From the NCBI GenBank assembly GCA_964407715.1, contig CAYOWP010000005.1:12780-76779 (forward strand): DNA of 64,000 nt. Direction: 5' to 3'. A program made the translations under genes and the position numbers. Origin of the DNA: an uncultured archaeon. Its GTDB lineage: Archaea; EX4484-52; JAADEF01. Shown here piece by piece: positions 15,398 through 37,865 of this stretch; the first letter of the stretch is position 1; every line of letters begins with the position of its first letter. The notes under the pieces are model-generated. The model saw only the letters and a program-made list of their open reading frames with translations. It ran no database searches and was not told the origin of the DNA.

Positions 15398-16471
15398 CTC
15401 AACATCAAGTGTGAAATCTTCTCCGGTGTTCAATTCTGGAGGAAGAAGATCAGTGTCTATTATAGCAGCAACTTTATATGCATCTGATAATTTTCTACCT
15501 TTTAATCTATCCAAGAAATTGATTCCTTCATTCCATCCAAAATAGCAAGTGATTAGATATTCATTATTTTTGATATTTGTCATCCACACTTTATTCTCAC
15601 TCACGGCAATAAATGTTTCATTCTTAATTTGAGAGATATTGACATCATAAATATAGCTATCGCTAGGAGATAACAAAGAGGTGTTGAAATATAAAACATA
15701 TCCTCTAAAACCATCATAGTTTATATAAGAACTCAAATTACTTACAACCAATATATATTTATCTTTATCCGGCACAGAGGATAAATCATATGTTGATGGA
15801 ATATAGGCAATACCATAAAACTCATTTCCTACTAATCTTCCATTTGTATAATTACACAACTTAAAGGATGAAAGTATGTTTTCATATGAATTTATGGTTA
15901 TGTAAGGATCCTCAAAATTCTCTATTGAGAAATAGGCACATAGCATTTTTTCCAAATTGTATCCCTGCTGATTTATTTTATCTACTATAACATATGAAAT
16001 ATTAAAGCATGCTTTTATTATATCGTATGAGTGCATGGATATTGAGTAATTATTTATCTCCACATCCAAAACAATGTTTTTAAGTGATGCTATCATCTTA
16101 TACTTTGATAGCCACTCTGTGATCGTGCTGTTAATCATAAAATCATTTTTGAATCCATCATAATCCCCATAAATAGATAAATTAAATAATATGTCTTCTG
16201 TGTTATTATAAAACCTACCTTCATAGGTCTCATTATTTATAAGCTCAACTAATGCTCTCTTTAATGCTACCTCAACACTTCTCGGAAAATCACGCTCTAA
16301 ACATTTTTTTATTTCCTTTAAGGTATTTCCTCTATAAAAACTTGATGTGGTGCTCTCAACATATTTCATTTTGATTGATAGGTTATAGGTCAAATATACA
16401 AGCATTATAGATATTGCGATGATAGTAAATAGAGTATACCCTAATCCTTTTTTCTTATTAGTTTTTACCAT
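15389..16471 (-). CDS. Class III signal-peptide (type IV pilin-like) protein
   Basis: KKG/LGYTLFTIIAI; last gene of the pilin-like operon. Confidence 0.7.
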   Translation of the reverse strand: MVKTNKKKGLGYTLFTIIAISIMLVYLTYNLSIKMKYVESTTSSFYRGNTLKEIKKCLERDFPRSVEVALKRALVELINNETYEGRFYNNTEDILFNLSIYGDYDGFKNDFMINSTITEWLSKYKMIASLKNIVLDVEINNYSISMHSYDIIKACFNISYVIVDKINQQGYNLEKMLCAYFSIENFEDPYITINSYENILSSFKLCNYTNGRLVGNEFYGIAYIPSTYDLSSVPDKDKYILVVSNLSSYINYDGFRGYVLYFNTSLLSPSDSYIYDVNISQIKNETFIAVSENKVWMTNIKNNEYLITCYFGWNEGINFLDRLKGRKLSDAYKVAAIIDTDLLPPELNTGEDFTLDVELF

Positions 16472-18360
16472 ACTGTCACCTCCAATCTAACAGGACCATG
16501 GAGATAAGGTATATTACCTATACTTGCTGTTTCATTTTTTATTTCAGTGGCATTGATATATCCTCCAAGAACTGCACGTAATCTTTGAATGGCATCATTT
16601 ATTGCTTCCTCTTTTGAAGGTAATACATTGCCATATCCAACATGTGATGGTATTAAAATAGTATACTCAAATGAACTTTCTGGAAGATAATCACAACCTG
16701 AACATGAATCCTCCATTCTAATATAGTTATCTACAGATACATCGAAGTTGACTGGATCAATGTAAATAGTGGAGGGAATGCCTCGTGGAAGATGAGAGCT
16801 GAAAACCCGAGTTGTAGGTATTGCGCTGCTCCACACATCAACATCAATAGTATAACTGAAAAGCTGGGCAACATGTAGGAATGTGGAAAGCAAAGTATTA
16901 TCATTGAAATTTATGGTATATGTTTTTGGATTTTCTTTATTACCTCCTAAGAGATTGGAGATTGTTATGTCTATTTTTCCATAATAGAGGGAGGTTTCAT
17001 TGTAGGTATAATTTAAGAATACATATGTTGATCCATATGGATCATTCTCTGGATCAGAATATATCTCAGTATATCCATCTCCAGTAAAGTCATCTCCATA
17101 TGTATTGGCATATACCACTATATAATTTGTACCTTGCTGGGATACAGGTGTTAAATCATAATAGAGATCCATATTTTTTGATGGATGTATAATTTCATCA
17201 ATTAGATTTCCATTCACATATACTCTTACATCCCAATTATACCACTGCCAATCTTCCCATGACCACCACCACCCTACATCCTCTATATCTCTTAAGGAAA
17301 GATGAAAGGTTACATTATTGATATGCGAATTTAAAGGTATATAATATTCCATTGTAGCCCATACGCCTGTTTTTCTATTTAGTGTTTCATTAGAAAGAAC
17401 ATCCTCATAATACACATACTTTTCAACATTTTTCTTTTCCTCATAAAATGAATCATCACTATATGTTATTTCGATTCTGCTACCAGGATGTACATGTGCA
17501 TTATACTGCGGATTTTTAAATCTTAGTGTCAAGGTGTTCCATCCATGGTGAATATGAGGTTTTAGATCCACATATCCAAACATTGCTCTTCCTGTTGCTG
17601 CTAATTCATTCCACAACCAAACAATATCATCTTTTATATTAACTCCATTGATTGATACTGCATTAAGATCACTTGAGCTTCTTCCTTTATGGATTGAGAT
17701 ATAGAATATTGCTGATGATAAATTTTCAGGATACTGCTCATAATAAAATTTCTTTGTTATTGTTAACCATCCTCCTTCATTTCCTGCCCCTTCTGGAGAG
17801 ATAGGAAATACTAATGTTGTATTTTTCTTTATTTTTGTAGCAAATGCTTTTGCTACATATCCCAATGGCTCCTTTGTTTCTTCATAGCCTGTAACAAAAG
17901 TATATGCTTTTGATATGTATTCAGATGATGTGTTTGAGGTTGAATAAACAATAAACTCTTTTGTGCTTGTTGAGAGGGTTATATTTATATAAAAATATTT
18001 TGTTAAGTTTGGATAGAGATAATCTATGAGATTTTTTATGAGGGTGTAGTTATTTTTATTCCATAACAAGACAATAATCTCATCAATTGACTTGTTATAT
18101 AATACTTCTTTATCAATATTACATGTTGAGGATATCTCATTCTGATATGTACTTGGCAGTGATGAGAACTTAATTTCGTGTAGAGTGGTTATTATATCAT
18201 GCGCCAATAGATTATTCTTCTTTTCTTTTATATAGGCATAGATGTTTTCGCTGCTTTCATTATAATAATATATGAATAATCCAAAAATAAAGATACTAAG
18301 CAAAGATAAAGCCATGATAGCATCATATGTGAATATTATTCCTCTTCTATTTCCAAACAT
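16465..18360 (-). CDS. Large class III signal-peptide adhesin-like protein
   Basis: RRG/IIFTYDAIMAL; beta-rich extracellular body. Confidence 0.7.
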   Translation of the reverse strand: MFGNRRGIIFTYDAIMALSLLSIFIFGLFIYYYNESSENIYAYIKEKKNNLLAHDIITTLHEIKFSSLPSTYQNEISSTCNIDKEVLYNKSIDEIIVLLWNKNNYTLIKNLIDYLYPNLTKYFYINITLSTSTKEFIVYSTSNTSSEYISKAYTFVTGYEETKEPLGYVAKAFATKIKKNTTLVFPISPEGAGNEGGWLTITKKFYYEQYPENLSSAIFYISIHKGRSSSDLNAVSINGVNIKDDIVWLWNELAATGRAMFGYVDLKPHIHHGWNTLTLRFKNPQYNAHVHPGSRIEITYSDDSFYEEKKNVEKYVYYEDVLSNETLNRKTGVWATMEYYIPLNSHINNVTFHLSLRDIEDVGWWWSWEDWQWYNWDVRVYVNGNLIDEIIHPSKNMDLYYDLTPVSQQGTNYIVVYANTYGDDFTGDGYTEIYSDPENDPYGSTYVFLNYTYNETSLYYGKIDITISNLLGGNKENPKTYTINFNDNTLLSTFLHVAQLFSYTIDVDVWSSAIPTTRVFSSHLPRGIPSTIYIDPVNFDVSVDNYIRMEDSCSGCDYLPESSFEYTILIPSHVGYGNVLPSKEEAINDAIQRLRAVLGGYINATEIKNETASIGNIPYLHGPVRLEVTVW

Positions 18361-20873: not shown

Positions 20874-20997
20874 GGGGCGGTAGCTCAGCCTGGGAGAGCG
20901 CCAGACTGAAGACAACTTGCAAAGAAAATATGAGAATATCTTAGCAAGGCACTTGGCAGATATCTGGTTGTCGCGGGTTCGAATCCCGCCTGCCCCA
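20874..20997 (+). tRNA. tRNA-Phe(GAA) with a 50-nt intron at 37/38 (20912-20961)
   Basis: Acceptor GGGGCGG/CTGCCCC, anticodon stem CCAGA/TCTGG, GGTTCGAATCC. Confidence 0.92.
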
Positions 20998-21063: not shown

Positions 21064-21191
21064 AGCCCCGGGAGGGATTCGAACCCCCGACCACGTGATT
21101 TCTTGCCATTCTGAAAAGGTTACGAGTATCGCGCTTCCTTGCTTCTGAGCAAGGTTACAAGTCACGCGCTCTACCGCTGAGCTACCGGGGC
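21064..21191 (-). tRNA. tRNA-Thr(TGT) with a 56-nt intron at 37/38 (21100-21155)
   Basis: Acceptor GCCCCGG/CCGGGGC, anticodon stem CGTGA/TCACG, canonical BHB (CUUG/CAAG). Confidence 0.93.
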
Positions 21192-24002: not shown

Positions 24003-25049
24003 ATGGTTCTTTCTTTTGAAATCGGTGCTAATAAAGTTATTATAGATATAGGAAATGAGAATCTTGTAGTTTTTTTAGTTATGTCCATCGTGATTCTTCA
24101 TCTTTTGGTTCTTAAGCAAATAAGAAAAAGAACAATAAAATTTGCTAATTATGAAACATTAAAAAAAGCGATAGGGTATGAGATACTAAAAAGCAATATC
24201 CTTGTTTTAATTATGAGAATACTCATAGTGATATCTTTGATTTTGGCACTTTATAAGTTTAATATTGAGGTGATAAAACCGGTTAGCGATGTGGATTTTG
24301 TAATTGCATTGGATATATCACAAACAATGCTAAATTCCGATAATGGAGCATTTTTACCGAATAAATTAGAGGTAGCTAAGCAAACATCAAAAGAGATAAT
24401 CCGCGTATTGCCTGAAAGAACAAAGATAGGAGTGGTTACTTTTTCAGGAAAGGCATATATAGATCAACCTTTAACAGATAACAAAGAGATGTTATTTCAA
24501 TCCATAGATAAGATAGACTCTAAACCACCTGCAGGCACTGTTATAGGAGATGCGATAGTTGCAGGGACAATATTGCTTGCTAATTCCACAAAAACAAAGA
24601 AATCTATAGTTCTTATTACAGATGGAAGACAAACAGAAGGATTAGGAGTTGATATTAATGAGTCCTTGGAATATGCTAAAAGGAACGGAATAATCATTAA
24701 TACTATTGGTCTTGGTAGGAAAAATAGGACATCCATAAACCTTACAGGTATAGATATTGAGAAATTGAATATTCCTGAGGAGATAAAGGAGCAAATTCTC
24801 AAGATGGAGAACAAAAGTTTTAATATCACTGCATTGGATGAGGAAACATTGAAATATATTGCCAATGTTACCAATGGAAAATATTATTATGTGGAAAATC
24901 AGACGTATTTTAAGGAGGCATTTAGTGAGGTTATTCTTAAATTCAACAGCATAACCATAGATGCAAGAAGATATGCTTTACTACTTGCTGCCATTTTATT
25001 GCTTATAGAGTATTCTCTTGGCGCAACAAAATACAAGACGATACCTTAA
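24003..25049 (+). CDS. VWA-domain membrane protein (BatA-like)
   Basis: DISQTM MIDAS-like motif, GTVIGDAI, LITDG. Confidence 0.85.
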   Translation: MVLSFEIGANKVIIDIGNENLVVFLVMSIVILHLLVLKQIRKRTIKFANYETLKKAIGYEILKSNILVLIMRILIVISLILALYKFNIEVIKPVSDVDFVIALDISQTMLNSDNGAFLPNKLEVAKQTSKEIIRVLPERTKIGVVTFSGKAYIDQPLTDNKEMLFQSIDKIDSKPPAGTVIGDAIVAGTILLANSTKTKKSIVLITDGRQTEGLGVDINESLEYAKRNGIIINTIGLGRKNRTSINLTGIDIEKLNIPEEIKEQILKMENKSFNITALDEETLKYIANVTNGKYYYVENQTYFKEAFSEVILKFNSITIDARRYALLLAAILLLIEYSLGATKYKTIP

Positions 25050-29628: not shown

Positions 29629-29700
29629 TATTAACAGAAATTTTATTGATATATTCTATCTCCCAAAAATATTTATTACAAATAGACAGATATAATCTTT

Positions 29701-31032
29701 ATGTATGTGCCTTATAATATTCGAAAAGTTTTTGAAAAGGCATCTATGAGAATCAGGAATAAGAAGATGTTGATTATCTCGCATAAAGATGCAGATGGAT
29801 TTCTCTCTTATGCTTTACTTCAGAGATGTATGGAAAAAGATGAAATAAGTAGACTTTTTCTGAATATTCTTACACCAGATATTCTTGATAGCATACCTAT
29901 GGATTTTGATGCTTATTTGTTTGTAGATACCGGTAATTGCTTGGAAAAAAATATCTTTGAGAGATTTAGGAATAAAACAGTCATAATTTTGGATCATCAT
30001 CCTACCTCGTACAATAAAATTTTTCACTCTCAAAATCATTTTAATATCAATGCCTATCTTTTGGGAATGGATGGAAATAAAGATATATGCTCTGCAGGAT
30101 TAAGTTATTTATTGTCCAAAAGTGTTAGTAAGTATGCTTTTGAGGGCTATTTTTATATACCAGTAGCAGGTGCGTTTGCAGATATGCAGATAAGCAGAGA
30201 GATTAAAGGTTTCAATTCTTTTTTTCTACATAATGCCCTGGCTAGAGGTGAGATGACAATAGAGAAATCTCTTATTTTGCCAGCAAAAAGCGTGAGACCT
30301 TTATATAAATCAATAGAATTCTTTATGAATGATAGAGGTATTGAATACACATCTTATGATGCTATATTGTTCTTGAAAAATATAGGAGTGAATCCATACA
30401 AGATGGATTTGTTTAGGAGAATACCACGTAAAGCAGATGACCTAAGTGAAGATGAAATCAAACTTATCTCCACACATCTTGCAATAGAATTGCAGGAAAG
30501 AGGAGTGGAGAGTGAAGAAATTTTGAGAGAGGCATATATTATAAAAAATAAGTATCTTCTTGAGGAGTTTGTTACATTGACCAATGCATGTGTGAAATTG
30601 GGTTATGTTGATAATGGATTATCCTTAGTATTCAAAATGAAAGATATGTATCACATATATGAAAATTATAGGCGTGAGATAGGAAAAGGATTTAACAAAG
30701 CTTATAGAAATCTACAAGTTCATGATAATATCGCATATTATATTTTTGATAAGAAGGATCTTAGAGACTCTTCATTAACAGGAAGCATAGCAACCATGTT
30801 AAATAAGAAAGTCATGAAGGAAATCATCTTTATCGGATATTTGAATGAGGATATTATAAAATTCTCCATTAGATCAAAAAATATTGATGTCAATTCACTT
30901 GTTAGGGAGTTCTGCAATAGAGTTCCAGGATGCTATGGAAATGGTCATCCACATGCCGCTGGAGGAACAATACCAAGAGAGCATTTGAACGAATTTATAG
31001 AGTTTCTTGATACTCATGCAAAAACCGCATAA
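29701..31032 (+). CDS. recJ: RecJ-like DHH phosphoesterase
   Basis: SHKDADG, FVDTG, LDHH, GNGHPHAAG. Confidence 0.85.
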   Translation: MYVPYNIRKVFEKASMRIRNKKMLIISHKDADGFLSYALLQRCMEKDEISRLFLNILTPDILDSIPMDFDAYLFVDTGNCLEKNIFERFRNKTVIILDHHPTSYNKIFHSQNHFNINAYLLGMDGNKDICSAGLSYLLSKSVSKYAFEGYFYIPVAGAFADMQISREIKGFNSFFLHNALARGEMTIEKSLILPAKSVRPLYKSIEFFMNDRGIEYTSYDAILFLKNIGVNPYKMDLFRRIPRKADDLSEDEIKLISTHLAIELQERGVESEEILREAYIIKNKYLLEEFVTLTNACVKLGYVDNGLSLVFKMKDMYHIYENYRREIGKGFNKAYRNLQVHDNIAYYIFDKKDLRDSSLTGSIATMLNKKVMKEIIFIGYLNEDIIKFSIRSKNIDVNSLVREFCNRVPGCYGNGHPHAAGGTIPREHLNEFIEFLDTHAKTA

Positions 31033-31132
31033 TTATTTTCTCACGGAAAAAAGAGGCCTCTCTCGGAAAATATCGTATATATAAGGTTTAAATATCCCAA
31101 TATGGTAGATATTCTTATAGGAGGTGATGAGG

Positions 31133-31291
31133 ATGATAGGAAAAAGGAGAAACATCTACAATTTGAGGGATTTGAGGCAGAGAAACATATATTATTATCT
31201 CAGAAATAGAGAGAGCATACTCAATAGAATCGAGATAAGACAGAAAATAGATTACAAAATAAGAGAGCTCAAGAAAATATATGGATTTTAA
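31133..31291 (+). CDS. Small Arg-rich hypothetical protein, 52 aa (not in the ORF track)
   Basis: Manual translation MIGKRRNIYNLRDLRQRNIYYYLRNRES...; strong SD GGAGGTGA. Confidence 0.55.
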   Translation: MIGKRRNIYNLRDLRQRNIYYYLRNRESILNRIEIRQKIDYKIRELKKIYGF

Positions 31292-31354
31292 AAAGCATCA
31301 AACACATAGTTATCCCTCCACACCCTCACATTTGATCAGCTATCCTTCAGAAAT

Positions 31355-32428
31355 GTTAACTGCTACACAACCACTCTATTGAGTTATGTTCTCCGCGACC
31401 TAAAGCAGCTGATCTCCTTGAGAGGGTTAGCTGCTTCCTACACGCATCAATGGACAGGATATGCCTCGAGGTAACCAGATTAAGAAATGGTTAACAGGAA
31501 GGAGATATATTCACCACAGGTTTTAAGGCAGCCAACCAGCTTGAGGGTTAGCTGCTTCATACATGAATCAAAAGGTCAGCTGCTCCAAGATACCTAATGG
31601 ATGGGTTACTCCTCCCATTAACCATTTTTTATAATTGGTTAACGGGAAGAAATCGGTATTAACGAGCATCTCATAGCATGCTAACCTTTTTTAAGGTTAG
31701 CTGCTCATTAACCGCTTTATTAGGTTACCTGCTATAATGCGGCTAATTGATAAAGTGTGGTTCCCGTTAACCAGATTTTTTATTTTTAATAAAAATGGTT
31801 AACGGGAGGTATCACTTTCTCAACAAACATTGCAGCATGCTAACCTTTTTTTAAGGTTAGCTGCTCATTAACTGCTTTATTAGGTTAGATGCTTTGCTAT
31901 GGTTCCTTGATAAGGTATACTTTCCGTTAACCATTTTTATTCTTTTTATTACTGGTTAACAGGAAAACTCGCTAATACAAAGACATTACAGCATAGTAAC
32001 CTCTCCTGGAGGTTAGCTGCTCTAATGTGCTATTGAGAAGGGTATACTTCCCATTAACCAGATTTTAAAAATGGTTAACTGGAAAACTCGCTAATACAAA
32101 GGTCTCGCAGCATGCTAACCTTTTTTAAGGTTAGCTGCTCTGCTATGGCTCATTGTGAAGGTATACTTCCCCTTAACCATTTTTTAATTTGGTTAACTGG
32201 AAGAAATCGCTTTACCAAAGCATATCACAGCATGGTAGCCGCATAAAAAGGTTAGCTGCTCTGATATACTTTGGAAGAGGTATGATGTCCCTTAACCAAA
32301 TTATTTTAAAAGATAAAAAATAGTTAACGGGAGAAACTCGCTAATATAAAGGCATTACGGCATACTGACCTTTATAAAGGATATCTGCTCTAATACACTG
32401 AAGGAATAGGATAACCTTCCCATTAACC
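31355..32428 (-). repeat. Tandem array 2 of hairpin units (8 units)
   Basis: Units about 31355-31476 (degenerate), 31489-31623, 31637-31772, 31797-31932, 31954-32059, 32073-32178, 32191-32297, 32322-32428, separated by 12-25 bp AT-rich linkers. Confidence 0.95.
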
Positions 32429-32585
32429 ATTTGCAGCATGCATCCTTCTGTTATAACTAAAAAATAATAAAAAATAATTATTTAAATGTTATATGTTCAT
32501 ATATTAATATATTAAGATATTAGTATATGAAAATGTTGATATAAAGATATATTTTTAAATCAAATCAAGGTGTGGAGGGATATAA

Positions 32586-33125
32586 ATGGAATGGGAAATA
32601 AAAATCCATAATGTCGTAGCCTCTCTAAATATCCAAAACAAAATTCCTCTTGTGAGGATTGCAAATAATCTTGAAGGTGTTGAGTATGAGCCTGATCAGT
32701 TTCCTGGACTGGTGCTGAGAATAGATGATCCAAAATCTGCTGCCCTGATGTTTAGTAACGGAAAAATAATAAGCACAGGGACAAAATCAGTAAAACAAGC
32801 AAATGATGCAATTTCTCGTTTATTAGAAATATTTGATGAGTTATCAATTCCTTATAATAATACAAAATATAATATTGATAATGTGGTTGCATCAACACAT
32901 GTAGGCAAAGAGTTGAATTTAACAAAAATTGCATGGGCTATGGAAGAATCTGAATATGAGCCTGATCAATTTCCAGGGCTGGTTTATAGACAACATGATA
33001 CTGGCGTAGTATTTCTATTATTTAGGACAGGTAAGATTGTATGTACTGGGGCTAAATCTGAAGAGCAGATATATGAGAGTTTTAAGAAGCTTTATACAAA
33101 ATTAAAAGAGATAGGAGAGATCTAA
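32586..33125 (+). CDS. tbp: TATA-box-binding protein (paralog 1)
   Basis: Two repeats of NVVAS...EYEPDQFPGLV. Confidence 0.96.
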   Translation: MEWEIKIHNVVASLNIQNKIPLVRIANNLEGVEYEPDQFPGLVLRIDDPKSAALMFSNGKIISTGTKSVKQANDAISRLLEIFDELSIPYNNTKYNIDNVVASTHVGKELNLTKIAWAMEESEYEPDQFPGLVYRQHDTGVVFLLFRTGKIVCTGAKSEEQIYESFKKLYTKLKEIGEI

Positions 33126-33162
33126 ACACTATCCTAAAGTATTAAAGGGGGATAGATAATCT

Positions 33163-33561
33163 ATGGAAACCACACTTAAAGAAGCCAAGCAATATAAAAA
33201 AGGAGATTTTATACTTATAGATGATACAGTATGCAGGGTAGTTGAGGTTTCAATCTCTAAACCAGGGAAGCATGGCTCTGCTAAAGCAAGAATTGTTGCT
33301 GTTTCTCTTTTAGATGGAAGGAAAAAGGAACTCATAAAGCCAGGTGATTCTAAGGTACCAGCACCTATAATAGAAAAGAAAGATGGGCAAGTTATAATGT
33401 TATATGATAAACGCACAGCTCAAGTTATGGATTTAGAGACTTATGAAACCTTAGACGCTATTATCTCTGAAGATATAGCAGAAAGTATAGAGGAAGGAAT
33501 AAATGTTGAATATTGGAAAATAGGAAACATGAATGTGATTATGCGAGTAAAAAGAGATTAG
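33163..33561 (+). CDS. eif5a: Translation factor a/eIF5A
   Basis: SKPGKHGSAK hypusine motif. Confidence 0.97.
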   Translation: METTLKEAKQYKKGDFILIDDTVCRVVEVSISKPGKHGSAKARIVAVSLLDGRKKELIKPGDSKVPAPIIEKKDGQVIMLYDKRTAQVMDLETYETLDAIISEDIAESIEEGINVEYWKIGNMNVIMRVKRD

Positions 33562-35369
33562 CTCTTTTTTGTAACTATGTTTTTTATTTGTTGTAGTTCC
33601 TCGGGAAGGTGAAGAGCAAGTACTTCTTTTTCTATTTCTTTTGTGAGATACTCTATCTCTCTATCTTTTAAGTGCTGGAATTGCTCATTTTCATGATTAA
33701 GGATTAATTCCACGACTTTCTTTAAATCTTCATAGTTATGTCTTCCATCAATTAAAATGAAATCTGCACCACCTTCATACAATTTAAGTGCCTTTTTGAA
33801 ACTGTTAGACCTGCCTATTATTTTAATATGCTTATTTAAGGATTTTACAGTTGCTAAGCTCTCAGAAAGTTCATTAAAATCTTCTTTTGCGTATATGAAT
33901 ATTTGTGCTTTATCTATATAGATATCTTTTAATATTTCTTCATCATCAATACTGCCAAAGATGACATTATATCCTTCTCTTCTTAACAATCTAACCTGTT
34001 GGATGTCATCACTTAATACAACTATTTTTTCAGGATTTAACTTTTCTAAGAGAATCTTCGTGAATGCATTTATACCATAGATAATGATATGATCACGCAT
34101 TTTATTGCTTGTTATAGCATCCAAGCTTTCCTCTTCTGCTTTATTAGCTATATTTATTTTCTCAAGAAATTCAAAATATCGATATAGCTTTGAGGTTATA
34201 ACCCAATTCCATTGTATCATATATGATGAGAGAAAAGAAGTTATGAAAAATACACCACCTATAATAGAAAGAAGTTCCTTTGTGAGTATTCCAGAATTTA
34301 ATGCTATACCTCCTAGTATAAGAGAGAACTCTGAGGTTTGTGCAAGTGTTATTCCAAGTTGAAGTGAATTCTTTGCATCATTTCCAAAAAGTAGAGAGGG
34401 AATTAGATATAGCATAGGCTTAATAAGAAGTGTGAATATTACAAGTAATGAGGTCAAGATTAAATATTGCGAGCTCAACGAAGCTAAGGACATTTGTAAG
34501 CCTAAAGCAACAAAGAAAAGCACTATAAAGAAATCTCTTAGATGGGCAATTCTTTGAGTGACTCTATATGAATATGGATATACTGCAGCAGCCAGACCTC
34601 CTATGAAACCACCTATTGCAATAGAAAATCCAAATACACTGCTTATTATAGAGAATATGAACAACACGGATAAAGAAAGAAGAAATGTAATGTCAACATT
34701 ATTATAGAAATATTTCATTAGAGGTTTAATAATAAATCTGTTTGATGCTAATGCCAATGCTATGAGTCCTGAACCTTTTAAAATGATATCCAATATGTGA
34801 TATTCTAAAGATGTCTTTTCAGCAGACATAAGAAATGGAATGATTAGAATTACAAGGATATCCTGCATCAGCAAAATACCTAAAGCATTTCTTCCATAGA
34901 TTGTATCTATTGTTCCTTTATCTGATAAATATTTTATTACGATAGCTGTGCTACTAAAAGATAGTGCTATCGCAATGAGAAGCGCTTTCTTAAAAGGTAT
35001 CGAAAACATATATAATAATGCTAAGGTTAAGAGAGAAGTAGTACTTACTTGAATAAGAGTTCCGATAATAGAGAAGCTTAATATATTTTTTATTTTGTCA
35101 ATATCAAACTCCATTCCTATGAGGAACAATAAAAGAGCAATACCCAATTCTGAGATAGAAAGTATAGATTCTTTGTTAAACGCTAAGTTGTGGGAGGAGA
35201 GATAATTTATCAAAAGTCCAACAAGGATATACACAGGAATCATAGGTTGCTTTAGATATGATGCAATCAATCCTAAAATTGTTGCTAACAATATTATAAT
35301 GCCGAGTTCCAATAATAACCCAGATTCCAACACCTTCAACGACAACATTTCGTGAATATAAAAAACCAT
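33558..35369 (-). CDS. Kef-type K+/H+ antiporter (CPA2) with a TrkA-N domain
   Basis: ELGIALLLFLIGME, FSSTAI, QDIL, SEFS; C-terminal KTN domain. Confidence 0.9.
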   Translation of the reverse strand: MVFYIHEMLSLKVLESGLLLELGIIILLATILGLIASYLKQPMIPVYILVGLLINYLSSHNLAFNKESILSISELGIALLLFLIGMEFDIDKIKNILSFSIIGTLIQVSTTSLLTLALLYMFSIPFKKALLIAIALSFSSTAIVIKYLSDKGTIDTIYGRNALGILLMQDILVILIIPFLMSAEKTSLEYHILDIILKGSGLIALALASNRFIIKPLMKYFYNNVDITFLLSLSVLFIFSIISSVFGFSIAIGGFIGGLAAAVYPYSYRVTQRIAHLRDFFIVLFFVALGLQMSLASLSSQYLILTSLLVIFTLLIKPMLYLIPSLLFGNDAKNSLQLGITLAQTSEFSLILGGIALNSGILTKELLSIIGGVFFITSFLSSYMIQWNWVITSKLYRYFEFLEKINIANKAEEESLDAITSNKMRDHIIIYGINAFTKILLEKLNPEKIVVLSDDIQQVRLLRREGYNVIFGSIDDEEILKDIYIDKAQIFIYAKEDFNELSESLATVKSLNKHIKIIGRSNSFKKALKLYEGGADFILIDGRHNYEDLKKVVELILNHENEQFQHLKDREIEYLTKEIEKEVLALHLPEELQQIKNIVTKKS

Positions 35370-35415
35370 AATATTTTTATTTTTTGAAATAAATAAATTA
35401 TTTTTTAATTAAAAG

Positions 35416-35596
35416 GGCATTGTCCAATAATCCCTTATTAACAAAATTTTGTTAAGCGGAAAAGTAACCTTTTAAAGAAGCGTATTAGAGCAGCAAACCT
35501 TGTAGAGCTAATGCAATTCAAATGGTTAACTGCTCTCATGCGCTTCTGTGAGAGTTTACGTTTCCGCTTAACAATAAGGAATTATTGGACAATGCC
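35416..35596. mobile_element. MITE-like element 5 (fully palindromic form)
   Basis: Perfect 16-bp TIR GGCATTGTCCAATAAT; flanked by the direct repeat TAATTAAAAG on both sides. Confidence 0.92.
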
Positions 35597-35659
35597 TAAT
35601 TAAAAGTACATGAAAGCACAAACTGTTAAGTAGGTATATTAAAGGAGATACGACTTCTT

Positions 35660-36108
35660 CGATAAGCAAGACCTTCGGAAAGGCAATTTCTTTGCGTTAA
35701 CAATTTTTTAAAATTTGGTTAATGGGCAACATAGCCTAATAAGAGGCAATTGCGGAGCAGCTAACCTTTATGAGAGGTCACTATCCTGCAATGCCTTTAT
35801 ATCGGCGAATTTCTCGCGTTAACCATTTTTATTAAAAATAAAAAAATCTGGTTAACAGGAACCACACTTTATCAATTAGCCGCATTATAGCAGCTAACCT
35901 TAAAAAAAGGTTAGCATGCTATGAGATGCTCGTTAATGACGAATCCCTCCAGTTAACCAATTATAAAAAATGGTTAACCCGAGGAGTAACTCATACATGA
36001 GGTATCTTGGAGCAGCTGACCTTTTGATGCGTGTAGGAAGCAGCTATAAGAAATATGGCTAAGGAGAAACATGACTTATCAGCGAGCAATATTGGAGCAG
36101 CTAACCTT
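35660..36108 (+). repeat. Tandem array 3 of hairpin units (about 4 units); partly an inverted copy of array 2
   Basis: Units 35717-35824, 35850-35958, 35972-about 36108; 35821-36045 matches the reverse complement of about 31545-31803. Confidence 0.9.
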
Positions 36109-36236
36109 TTTTTGTATGTGTGCATGCTGTGATGTAAAATGAATCTTTTTTATGCGAATCAAAATCTTTATAAATAGAATTTTGTAAAAATTTTAACTTA
36201 TAATGTGTTCTTGAGAAGTTTTTGATGGTGAAATGA

Positions 36237-37865
36237 ATGAATGAAAAATTAAGATTTGTGTTTGTTGTAGGTGGAGTGCTTTCTGGTATTGGCAAGGGAG
36301 TAGTAACAGCATCTATCTCAAAACTTCTTCAATCTTATGGATATAAGGTCACAGCAATAAAAATAGATCCTTATGTTAATATAGATGCTGGAACTATGAG
36401 ACCTACAGAGCATGGAGAGGTATTTGTTACAGATGATGGAGGAGAAATAGATCAGGATTTAGGAACATATGAGAGGTTTTTAGACATAACAATTCCAAAG
36501 AAAAACAATATCACTACAGGACAAATATATTTAGAGGTGATAAAAAGGGAGAGAGCTTTGGGGTATGGTGGAAGAGATGTGCAAATCATACCAGATGTGA
36601 TGAACGAGGTAAAAAGAAGAATTTTGGAGGCAAGCAGGGGATATGAGATTGCTGTTGTTGAGGTTGGAGGAACAACAGGAGATATAGAGAACCTCGTATT
36701 CTTATATGCGATTAGAAACCTTATGAATGAATACCCATCTGTAAGTGTGATGGTAACATATGCTCCTTTTTTGAGGACTGTAGGAGAATTAAAAACAAAA
36801 CCAACACAACATGCTGTTGCAAAGTTAAGAGAGACGGGTATATTTCCAGATTTCTTGGTTGTTAGATCTGAAATGGGATTGGATGAAATAAGAAAAAAGA
36901 AAATCTCTAAAAGCACTTTTATACCTGAGGAGAATATTATTGACAATCCTGATGTTGATTCTATATATCGAATTCCAATCTTATTTGAGGAACAGAAGGT
37001 TATTGAGAATATACTGAAAAAATTGAATCTGAAGAAGAGGAAATATGATATGGAAGCATGGAGGAAATTTGTTGAAAAGATAGATAAATCAGAGAAGGAG
37101 ATAAACATTGCGATTGTTGGAAAATATGTTAGCTATGGAAAATCTGAGCATAAGGATGTATATGTATCTGTTATAGAGGCGTTGAAACACGCATCCTATA
37201 ATAACTATTTAAAACCAAAGATAACCCAAATATCATCTTTGGAACTTGAAAAGGATGGCTATGAGGAAATTCTTAAGGATTTTGATGGAATCATTGTCCC
37301 TGGAGGATTTGGAGATTCTGGTGTTGAGGGCAAAATAAATGCTATTAGATATGCAAGAGAGAATGATGTTCCTTTCCTTGGTTTGTGTTATGGTATGCAG
37401 TTAGCAGTTGTGGAATATGCGAGGAATGTATGCGGGTTAAGAGGTGCACATACTACAGAGGTTGATCCTAACACTCCATATCCCGTGATAGATATCATGC
37501 CAGAGCAAAAGAAGCTAATAGAGGAAGGAAAATATGGAGCAACAATGAGATTGGGAGCATATCCCGCAATATTAAAAAAGGGCACATTGGTATATAATCT
37601 CTATAAAAAGGAGAGAGTTTATGAGAGGCATAGGCATAGATATGAAGTTAATCCTGATTTTGTTGAAATACTTGAAAATGGAGGATTGGTGTTTTCTGGC
37701 ACAAGTCCAGATGGTAGATTGATGGAATTCCTGGAGCTTCCAAATCATAGATTCTTTGTTGCTACTCAGGCGCATCCTGAGTTTAAGAGCAGACCTCTTA
37801 ATCCACATCCTTTATTTGTTGGTTTTATTAATGCAATAGCTCATAAAAAAGGCTTTGTTCAATAG
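36237..37865 (+). CDS. pyrG: CTP synthase
   Basis: GGVLSGIGKG, KIDPY, PGGFG, GLCYGMQ, RHRHRYE, QAHPEF. Confidence 0.98.
   Translation: MNEKLRFVFVVGGVLSGIGKGVVTASISKLLQSYGYKVTAIKIDPYVNIDAGTMRPTEHGEVFVTDDGGEIDQDLGTYERFLDITIPKKNNITTGQIYLEVIKRERALGYGGRDVQIIPDVMNEVKRRILEASRGYEIAVVEVGGTTGDIENLVFLYAIRNLMNEYPSVSVMVTYAPFLRTVGELKTKPTQHAVAKLRETGIFPDFLVVRSEMGLDEIRKKKISKSTFIPEENIIDNPDVDSIYRIPILFEEQKVIENILKKLNLKKRKYDMEAWRKFVEKIDKSEKEINIAIVGKYVSYGKSEHKDVYVSVIEALKHASYNNYLKPKITQISSLELEKDGYEEILKDFDGIIVPGGFGDSGVEGKINAIRYARENDVPFLGLCYGMQLAVVEYARNVCGLRGAHTTEVDPNTPYPVIDIMPEQKKLIEEGKYGATMRLGAYPAILKKGTLVYNLYKKERVYERHRHRYEVNPDFVEILENGGLVFSGTSPDGRLMEFLELPNHRFFVATQAHPEFKSRPLNPHPLFVGFINAIAHKKGFVQ

What the first reader, a model, noticed from the sequence alone, without database searches (positions are those of the whole stretch)
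31545..36045. Arrays 2 and 3 share units and linkers in inverted orientation, flanking tbp-eIF5A-Kef
Seen in the sequence: 35821-36045 is the reverse complement of about 31545-31803, including the linkers ATTTTTATTAAAAATAAAAAA(A)TCT and AATTATAAAAAAT and two units in the same order. The last array 3 unit then continues with GATGCGTGTAGGAAGC, which matches a different array 2 unit (about 31435-31450). Inference: the arrays exchange unit blocks, and the roughly 4 kb segment holding TBP1 and eIF5A is potentially invertible or was inverted at these arrays.
Basis: partly seen in the sequence, partly recalled or inferred. Interest (0 to 1): 0.6.

Follow-up and report, generated by a model that had tools for sequence, protein, structure and literature searches.

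The report
Inverted shared block between repeat arrays
Two neighbouring clusters of a genome-wide hairpin-shaped junk repeat in a small vent archaeon carry the same ~250-base block in opposite orientation around three housekeeping genes; this is most likely a leftover of local recombination between repeats, and nothing shows that it works as a gene switch.

Summary
Window 31549-31811 is the reverse complement of 35810-36046, with 216 of 235 aligned bases identical. The right arm has one 28-nt deletion. Both linkers and the unit order match. The two arms are each other's best match in the whole 0.9-Mb genome. Ordinary copies of the repeat family are about 70-76% alike.

The arrays belong to a palindromic intergenic repeat family that this scan already described on other DNA of this genome (48 arrays). 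The shared block begins inside the conserved core and ends inside the conserved outer stem. It has no terminal inverted repeats and no target duplication. I read it as an ectopic recombination or gene-conversion tract between two oppositely oriented neighbouring arrays.

Invertibility is not shown:
- No recombinase gene lies nearby.
- The arms differ by 8%, and their longest perfect run is 36 nt.
- The genes between them are complete housekeeping genes.
- The only public data are k=31 contigs, which cannot tell orientation.
- Relatives lack the repeats and share none of this gene order.

Best partners are adjacent arrays more often than chance predicts (7 of 48 against 1.4 expected). Ordinary; low interest.

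The parts
29701..31032 (+). DHH/DHHA1 phosphoesterase (RecJ-like), the left flank outside the inverted repeat
   Evidence: Pfam DHH and DHHA1. The deoC-hyp550-recJ block is kept in the same-genus relative G001.
31352..32429 (+). Array 2: eight head-to-tail palindromic units (about 108-138 nt) with A/T-rich linkers. All core motifs are on the + strand.
   Evidence: Core and outer-stem motif hits. Units fold as long hairpins, z -4.5 to -7.8. Sequence read.
31549..31811 (+). Left arm of the inverted repeat: the right two-thirds of unit B, a linker, unit C, a linker, and the first 16 nt of unit D
   Evidence: 216 of 235 identical to the right arm. Reciprocal best hit genome-wide.
31693..31720 (+). 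28-nt internal duplication of the core, present in the left arm and in the C14 copy but absent from the right arm. Its placement is ambiguous within the duplicated core.
   Evidence: Three-way alignment. The 28-nt core spacing is seen (family D6).
31428..31450 (+). 23-nt stretch in unit A that is a perfect reverse complement of 36024-36046
   Evidence: pair I25. The motif occurs only three times in the genome.
32586..33125 (+). TATA-binding protein gene
   Evidence: Pfam TBP, E 2e-57. 85% identical to the G001 orthologue, which sits in a different context.
33163..33561 (+). aIF5A gene
   Evidence: Pfam IF5A-like_N.
33558..35369 (-). Kef-type cation/proton antiporter with a TrkA-N domain
   Evidence: Pfam Na_H_Exchanger and TrkA_N.
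35406..35606 (.). Separate MITE (element about 35415-35597) with terminal inverted repeats. It is flanked by the 9-nt direct repeat TAATTAAAA and carries one hairpin unit.
   Evidence: (I8, I18). Very high word depth in the runs: 510 in X1 and 156 in X2.
35620..36130 (-). Array 3: one degenerate unit, units D' and C', the truncated unit B', and a terminal half unit. Cores are on the - strand.
   Evidence: The truncated unit does not fold beyond chance, z -0.06.
35810..36046 (-). Right arm of the inverted repeat
36237..37865 (+). CTP synthase (pyrG), the right flank outside the inverted repeat
   Evidence: Pfam CTP_synth_N and GATase.

Best explanation
Arrays 2 and 3 are two of about 48 intergenic clusters of one lineage-specific palindromic repeat, and they lie in opposite orientation. 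A tract of about 240-260 nt was copied from one array into the other in inverted orientation. The tract holds part of unit B, all of unit C, two linkers and the first 16 nt of unit D. I infer ectopic homologous or homeologous recombination (gene conversion or template switching), with junctions in the family's two most conserved motifs. The copies later diverged by 19 substitutions and by a 28-nt slippage deletion of an internal core duplication. The result is a passive inverted repeat around TBP, aIF5A and Kef. Host recombination (RadA) could in principle flip the 4-kb segment on rare occasions. The flip would be neutral, and nothing indicates a dedicated or frequent switch. Shown: the repeat, its specificity, its end points, the lack of a recombinase, and the neighbour effect. 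Inferred: the copying mechanism and its direction.
For: Specific match: 216 of 235 identical, reciprocal best hits, other copies at 69-79% identity. The outer end falls at TAGCTGCT inside the core, and the inner end falls 16 nt into the TGGTTAACG outer stem, so the block is not made of whole units. A third copy (C14:8211-8392) also ends at TGGTTAAC and keeps the 28-nt segment, so the deletion is specific to the right arm. The block has no terminal inverted repeats or target duplication, whereas the true MITE next to it has both. Genome-wide, 7 of 48 arrays have an adjacent array as best partner (1.39 expected; 74 of 20,000 permutations reach 7). All 3 reciprocal best pairs on one contig are inverted, out of 12 reciprocal pairs in all. 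The genome has no resolvase or Y1 transposase and only one tyrosine recombinase, on contig C1. The 77-kb contig runs through both arrays, and the source run's contigs tile the given orientation with 0 mismatches.
Against: The direction and mechanism of copying are not observable. Gene conversion, an inverted duplication, and an old crossover between the arms leave the same sequence today. The neighbour effect rests on few independent events: two reciprocal adjacent pairs, reached by 903 of 20,000 permutations. Three inverted pairs out of three has a chance of 1 in 8. An 8% divergence shows the event is old, so its history may be more complex than one tract.
Confidence: 0.6

Rival explanations
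1. The 4-kb segment really was inverted once, by a crossover between oppositely oriented arrays, and the shared block marks that event. This could be an ancestral tandem duplicate split by an inversion, or a crossover that came with the conversion.
For: The arms sit mirror-symmetrically near the outer edges of both arrays. Two more same-contig array pairs are mutual best partners in inverted orientation: C12, 5.2 kb apart, and C4, 18.8 kb apart. Gene order in this lineage is heavily scrambled compared with the same-genus relative. Inversions bounded by oppositely oriented mobile-element copies are documented in Halobacterium salinarum (PMC7002104, passages read).
Against: An inversion does not create similarity, so a prior duplication is still needed. 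Undoing an inversion at the arm ends does not restore a regular array junction (my reading). No outgroup has this gene order, so no ancestral orientation can be defined.
Confidence: 0.25
2. The segment is an active, programmed invertible element: a phase-variation-like switch of TBP, aIF5A and Kef.
For: Inverted repeats flank a discrete segment that includes a transcription factor gene.
Against: No recombinase gene is in the window, and the genome has only one tyrosine recombinase, on another contig. The arms are long, 8% diverged and differ by a 28-nt indel, unlike recombinase sites. All three genes are complete, with their own upstream regions inside the segment, so flipping would change nothing obvious. 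The assembly passes through both arms in a single orientation.
Confidence: 0.04
3. The block is a composite mobile element of two units plus linkers that inserted independently into both arrays in opposite orientation.
For: A third partial copy exists on another contig (C14). The same genome has active-looking MITEs with 9-nt target duplications (earlier scan notes).
Against: The block ends fall inside units. There are no terminal inverted repeats and no target duplication at the ends. The C14 copy covers only part of the block. No Y1/RAYT-type transposase was found.
Confidence: 0.08
4. The resemblance is family-level similarity between palindromic units, or an assembly artefact.
For: Units are themselves imperfect palindromes, so many weak inverted matches arise (56 inverted pairs in 8 kb).
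Against: Identity is 92% against a background of 69-79%, the match covers unique linkers, and it is a reciprocal best hit. Contigs of the source run reproduce both arms and their junctions to unique DNA with 0 mismatches, and a second sample also holds the locus.
Confidence: 0.03

Closest known systems
REP/BIME arrays of Enterobacteria and Pseudomonas (PMC3333891 and PMC2817692; search listing and abstract starts only)
   Same: Both are high-copy intergenic palindromic units. Both are clustered with short variable linkers into mosaic arrays, and both offer substrates for host recombination.
   Different: Units here are 108-138 nt, not about 35-40 nt (that REP length is recalled, not from a call). 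They lie head to tail in one orientation rather than alternating. No Y1/RAYT transposase was found in the 92%-complete genome.
Inversions bounded by oppositely oriented IS/MITE copies, e.g. the 23.8-kb ISHsal1-bounded and the ISH3C-bounded inversions in Halobacterium salinarum 91-R6 (PMC7002104, passages read)
   Same: Oppositely oriented copies of a dispersed repeat bracket a chromosomal segment in an archaeon. The mechanism would be host homologous recombination.
   Different: There, both orientations were seen in PacBio reads and the copies are 96-100% identical over about 1.4 kb. Here the arms are about 250 nt and 92% identical, and no second orientation has been observed.
Prokaryotic MITEs as recombination hotspots (review PMC10969869, passages read)
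   Same: Non-coding repeats scattered between genes. The review states that MITEs serve as hotspots for homologous recombination.
   Different: The shared block lacks MITE termini and a target duplication. Only the neighbouring 35415-35597 element meets the MITE definition.
Site-specific invertible segments (Hin/Gin/Fim type; genome-wide survey PMC5903667, listing and abstract start only)
   Same: Inverted repeats flank a short segment.
   Different: There is no adjacent recombinase, the arms are long and diverged, and no promoter or gene end is split by the repeat.

Membership tests
Site-specific invertible DNA switch | Inverted repeats bounding the segment | tested here: met
   Arms 31549-31811 and 35810-36046.
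Site-specific invertible DNA switch | Dedicated serine or tyrosine recombinase encoded nearby | tested here: not met
   PF00239: 0 matches in the genome. PF00589: 1 match, on contig C1. The genome is 92% complete.
Site-specific invertible DNA switch | Both orientations present in a population | tested here: inconclusive
   All four runs are held only as k=31 contigs. They tile the reference orientation but break at the shared words of 29-36 nt, so either orientation gives the same words.
Site-specific invertible DNA switch | Flipping changes a promoter-gene or gene-end connection | tested here: not met
   TBP, aIF5A and Kef are complete ORFs. Their upstream regions (32430-32585 and 35370-35809) lie inside the arms. 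This is a reading of the sequence; no promoter assay was done.
REP/BIME-like palindromic repeat arrays | Palindromic unit able to form a hairpin | tested here: met
   Five of five complete units fold with z from -4.5 to -7.8.
REP/BIME-like palindromic repeat arrays | High copy number, intergenic, clustered with linkers | tested here: met
   382 core hits in the genome (including the redundant contig C9). 48 arrays covering 34,668 bp without C9. All lie between ORFs.
REP/BIME-like palindromic repeat arrays | Alternating orientation of neighbouring units | tested here: not met
   Core strands within arrays are mostly uniform, e.g. ++++++++++ in array 2.
REP/BIME-like palindromic repeat arrays | Cognate RAYT (Y1) transposase | tested here: not met
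   PF01797: 0 matches.
MITE | Terminal inverted repeats and a target-site duplication at the ends of the shared block | tested here: not met
   The block ends lie in the core and in the outer stem with no flanking duplication. By contrast, the 35415-35597 element has terminal repeats and a 9-nt duplication.
Repeat-mediated (homologous) chromosomal inversion | Alternative arrangement seen in a related strain or an outgroup | tested here: inconclusive
   The contigs of relatives G001-G004 that carry these genes each hold only one of TBP, aIF5A, Kef and PyrG; none carries two of them or a repeat motif. No near-identical assembly was found in metagenome contigs.

The most novel reading that the evidence does not exclude
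In this genome, palindromic arrays preferentially share recent blocks with their nearest neighbour, in inverted orientation (ours, C12 and C4). The cause would be that the arrays themselves trigger local inversions or strand-switching replication errors. This repeat-driven process would then be what shuffled gene order down to blocks of 1-4 genes relative to the repeat-free relative of the same genus.
Probability: 0.15. Interest if true: 0.5.

Novelty: new member of a known kind. Interest (0 to 1): 0.22.

Why it matters
If the arrays do promote small inversions, they would explain how a tiny symbiont-type archaeal genome lost nearly all gene-order conservation with its closest known relative. 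They would also give an archaeal counterpart to repeat-driven rearrangement in bacteria. As it stands, the locus is one more example of dispersed repeats recombining with each other, with no sign of a regulatory role.

Tried and rejected
(1) Synteny test. I fetched TBP loci from 15 relatives and further contigs of G001-G004 and ran tblastn with 11 window proteins. Among TBP, aIF5A, Kef and PyrG no adjacency is kept; the only other window genes on the TBP contigs are a RecJ-like gene next to TBP in two order-level relatives (24-25% identity, opposite strand) and pyrG 5.6 kb from TBP in a third. So the test cannot give an ancestral orientation.

(2) Reads. One search found 6 runs, all held as Logan contigs. 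I laid four of them. The "opposite strands" joints (31941/35597, 32088/35525, 32220/35518) all touch the high-copy MITE at 35.5 kb with sides of 31-52 nt. I read them as other genomic copies, not as an inversion. The contig with 7 differences at 31696-31795 is the C14 copy (compare). No verdict on orientation is possible.

(3) Near-identical assemblies. A search in metagenome contigs with Kef found only one unrelated hit at 29% identity.

(4) Array orientation against flanking gene direction. Among 30 arrays with at least 80% uniform core strand and a gene on both sides: divergent 13, co-directional 8, convergent 5, anti-directional 4. There is no coupling that would explain the opposite orientation of arrays 2 and 3.

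(5) Rfam and ARAGORN give no RNA family in the arrays.

(6) One paired position changed on both sides between the arms (31644 G to T, 31765 C to T). That breaks the pair rather than compensating for it. It is a single case and not a test of structure.

(7) The first literature search, for archaeal palindromic repeats with inversions, returned nothing directly relevant.
Full report
**What is there**

The window comes from contig C5 of a 0.9-Mb, 92%-complete archaeal metagenome-assembled genome with 32% G+C. Records of related genomes are labelled Nanohalarchaeota or uncultured archaeon. Earlier notes of this scan call the organism a DPANN archaeon from a hydrothermal vent. I did not check that label myself, but the runs that hold the DNA are vent metagenomes.

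The gene order around the finding is:
- DHH/DHHA1 phosphoesterase (RecJ-like), 29701-31032, + strand
- array 2, 31352-32429
- TBP, 32586-33125, + strand
- aIF5A, 33163-33561, + strand
- Kef-type antiporter, 33558-35369, - strand
- a MITE, about 35415-35597
- array 3, 35620-36130
- CTP synthase, 36237-37865, + strand

**The repeat family**

Both arrays are built from one palindromic unit of 108-138 nt.
- The outer stem is TGGTTAACGGGAA...TTCCCGTTAACCA.
- The apical core is AGCAGCTAACC-loop-GGTTAGCTGCT.
- The longer units carry a 28-nt internal duplication of the core.
- Units are separated by A/T-rich linkers.
- Five of five complete units fold far better than shuffles, with z from -4.5 to -7.8.

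The core motif occurs 33 times in the window against 0.6 expected. It occurs 382 times in the genome. That count includes contig C9, which is a 43.7-kb, 100% identical duplicate of C8. Without C9 there are 48 arrays of three or more cores, covering 34,668 bp.

The scan has already described this family on four other pieces of the same genome. My question here is only the relation between arrays 2 and 3.

**Check of the observation**

The inverted match is real.
- 31549-31811 aligns to the reverse complement of 35810-36046.
- 216 of 235 ungapped positions are identical, with 19 mismatches.
- The right arm has one 28-nt deletion, and there are two 1-nt indels in T runs.
- There are five perfect runs of 26-36 nt.
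- Both linkers and the unit order are shared.
- 36024-36046 is a perfect reverse complement of 31428-31450. This 21-mer type exists only at these three places in the genome.

The match stands well above the family background.
- The two arms are reciprocal best hits in the genome, at 276 bits.
- The next hit is a partial third copy, C14:8218-8394, at 209 bits.
- Every other copy scores 144 bits or less at 69-79% identity.
- Under strict scoring the pair scores 221 bits. The median is 74 bits and the 99th percentile is 187 bits over 1039 array pairs. The pair is among the top six HSPs.

**Anatomy of the shared block**

The outer end of the homology falls at TAGCTGCT, inside the conserved core of unit B. 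In the right arm the other half of that unit is missing and a new linker follows. The inner end falls 16 nt into the TGGTTAACG outer stem of unit D. The block is therefore not a set of whole units.

The C14 copy spans unit C plus the linker and again ends at TGGTTAAC. It carries the 28-nt segment. So the 28-nt gap is a deletion in the right arm, by slippage between the duplicated cores.

The block has no terminal inverted repeats and no target duplication. The adjacent element at 35415-35597 has both, with TAATTAAAA on each side.

End points inside the two most conserved motifs are what recombination or template switching between related but diverged arrays would give. This agrees with an earlier scan note that half-units are re-paired at the core.

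**Is the segment invertible, or was it inverted?**

- *Recombinases.* The genome has no serine recombinase and no Y1 transposase. Its single tyrosine recombinase is on contig C1.
- *Content.* The three genes between the arms are complete housekeeping genes, and their upstream regions lie inside the arms. A flip would change no gene-promoter link (my reading of the sequence).
- *Arms.* They are 8% diverged and differ by an indel. That argues against frequent exchange, which would homogenise them (inference). For comparison, the pyrG region in a second sample differs from the window by 14 letters in 1938.
- *Reads.* All six runs found are stored as k=31 contigs, and I laid four of them. The source run's contigs tile the assembled orientation with 0 mismatches: 29700-31687, 32111-35449 and 35908 onward. 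They break inside the arms. A crossover within a perfect run of 31 nt or more (the longest is 36 nt) yields the same 31-mers in both orientations, so these data cannot decide. The only hint of one dominant orientation is that the 77-kb contig was assembled through both arms (inference).
- *Synteny.* In the same-genus genome G001, TBP, aIF5A and Kef lie on three different contigs among unrelated neighbours. Only deoC-hyp550-recJ and hyp307-orf152-orf862 are kept. In the three same-family genomes each of TBP, aIF5A, Kef and PyrG also stands alone. Eleven order-level TBP loci show no linkage to aIF5A or Kef; a RecJ-like gene lies next to TBP in two of them (24-25% identity, opposite strand) and pyrG lies 5.6 kb from TBP in a third. 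The relatives have none of the core hairpins: 0 in four genomes against 23 in this one. Their fragmented assemblies may have lost repeats. It shows only that this gene cluster was put together in this lineage.

**A genome-wide pattern**

Seven of 48 arrays have an adjacent array as their best partner, against 1.39 expected. In a permutation test, 74 of 20,000 runs reach 7.

Of 12 reciprocal best pairs, three lie on one contig, and all three are inverted:
- this one
- C12:10261-10794 with 16004-16510, 5.2 kb apart, with six housekeeping genes between
- C4:4915-5503 with 24061-24725, 18.8 kb apart

Two reciprocal adjacent pairs is only weakly unusual (903 of 20,000 permutations). Three inverted out of three has a chance of 1 in 8. 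Array orientation is not tied to the direction of flanking genes. So exchange between arrays seems to favour close neighbours, but the preference for inverted orientation is not established.

**Verdict**

The best reading is a recombination or gene-conversion tract between two oppositely oriented neighbouring arrays of a known selfish repeat family, which left a passive, diverged inverted repeat (confidence about 0.6). A past inversion at these arrays remains possible (about 0.25) and cannot be tested with the data available. A programmed switch is unlikely (about 0.04).

The closest known cases are REP/BIME mosaics and inversions bounded by IS or MITE copies in Halobacterium (PMC7002104, passages). 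The MITE review PMC10969869 (passages) states that such repeats are recombination hotspots. This is a new member of a known kind, of low interest.

Noticed in passing
G000 contigs C8:7161-50856 and C9:262-43957: The two contigs are 100% identical over 43,696 nt in reverse complement. About 5% of the assembly is therefore redundant, which inflates repeat counts unless C9 is dropped.
   Followed up: partly
window 36237-37865 (pyrG): After three archaeal MAG records at 67% identity, the next-best relatives found in genome contigs are almost all Patescibacteria (CPR bacteria) at 51-57%. This may reflect a bacterial-type CTP synthase acquired by this lineage, or a bias of the pattern-based search.
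   Followed up: no
window 35406-35606: A complete MITE of about 183 nt with terminal inverted repeats, flanked by the 9-nt duplication TAATTAAAA, sits between kef and array 3. Its words reach depth 510 in the source run, against about 25 for the neighbouring genes.
   Followed up: partly
G000 C12:10261-16510 and C4:4915-24725: Two further pairs of arrays are mutual best partners in inverted orientation. The C12 pair brackets GatD-like, thymidylate kinase, NUDIX, carbohydrate-kinase-like, RadB/KaiC-like and DHH genes; I named these by eye from the translations, not by a family search.
   Followed up: partly
window 31124-31291: A 55-codon ORF for a very basic peptide, preceded by GGAGGTGAT, lies between recJ and array 2. 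It has no Pfam match. The stretch is also held by contigs of two other samples.
   Followed up: no
window 20874-20997 (+) and 21064-21191 (-): Rfam finds two long tRNA matches of 124 and 128 nt, probably intron-bearing, that ARAGORN does not report.
   Followed up: no
window 32111-35449 compared with its flanks: In the source run, the contig covering TBP-aIF5A-Kef has word depth 25, against 16.9 (recJ side) and 19.3 (pyrG side). In the second sample, the segment's contigs are shallower (4.5-7.5) than the flanks (about 10.4). Strain mixtures probably explain this. I have not interpreted it further.
   Followed up: no
window 31559-31566: In the second sample (X2), a contig laid on the left arm carries the right-arm/unit-A bases at the three positions where the arms differ there (31559, 31564, 31566), plus one further change at 31565. 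This could be a strain polymorphism or a small conversion patch. It could also be a mis-laid copy.
   Followed up: partly
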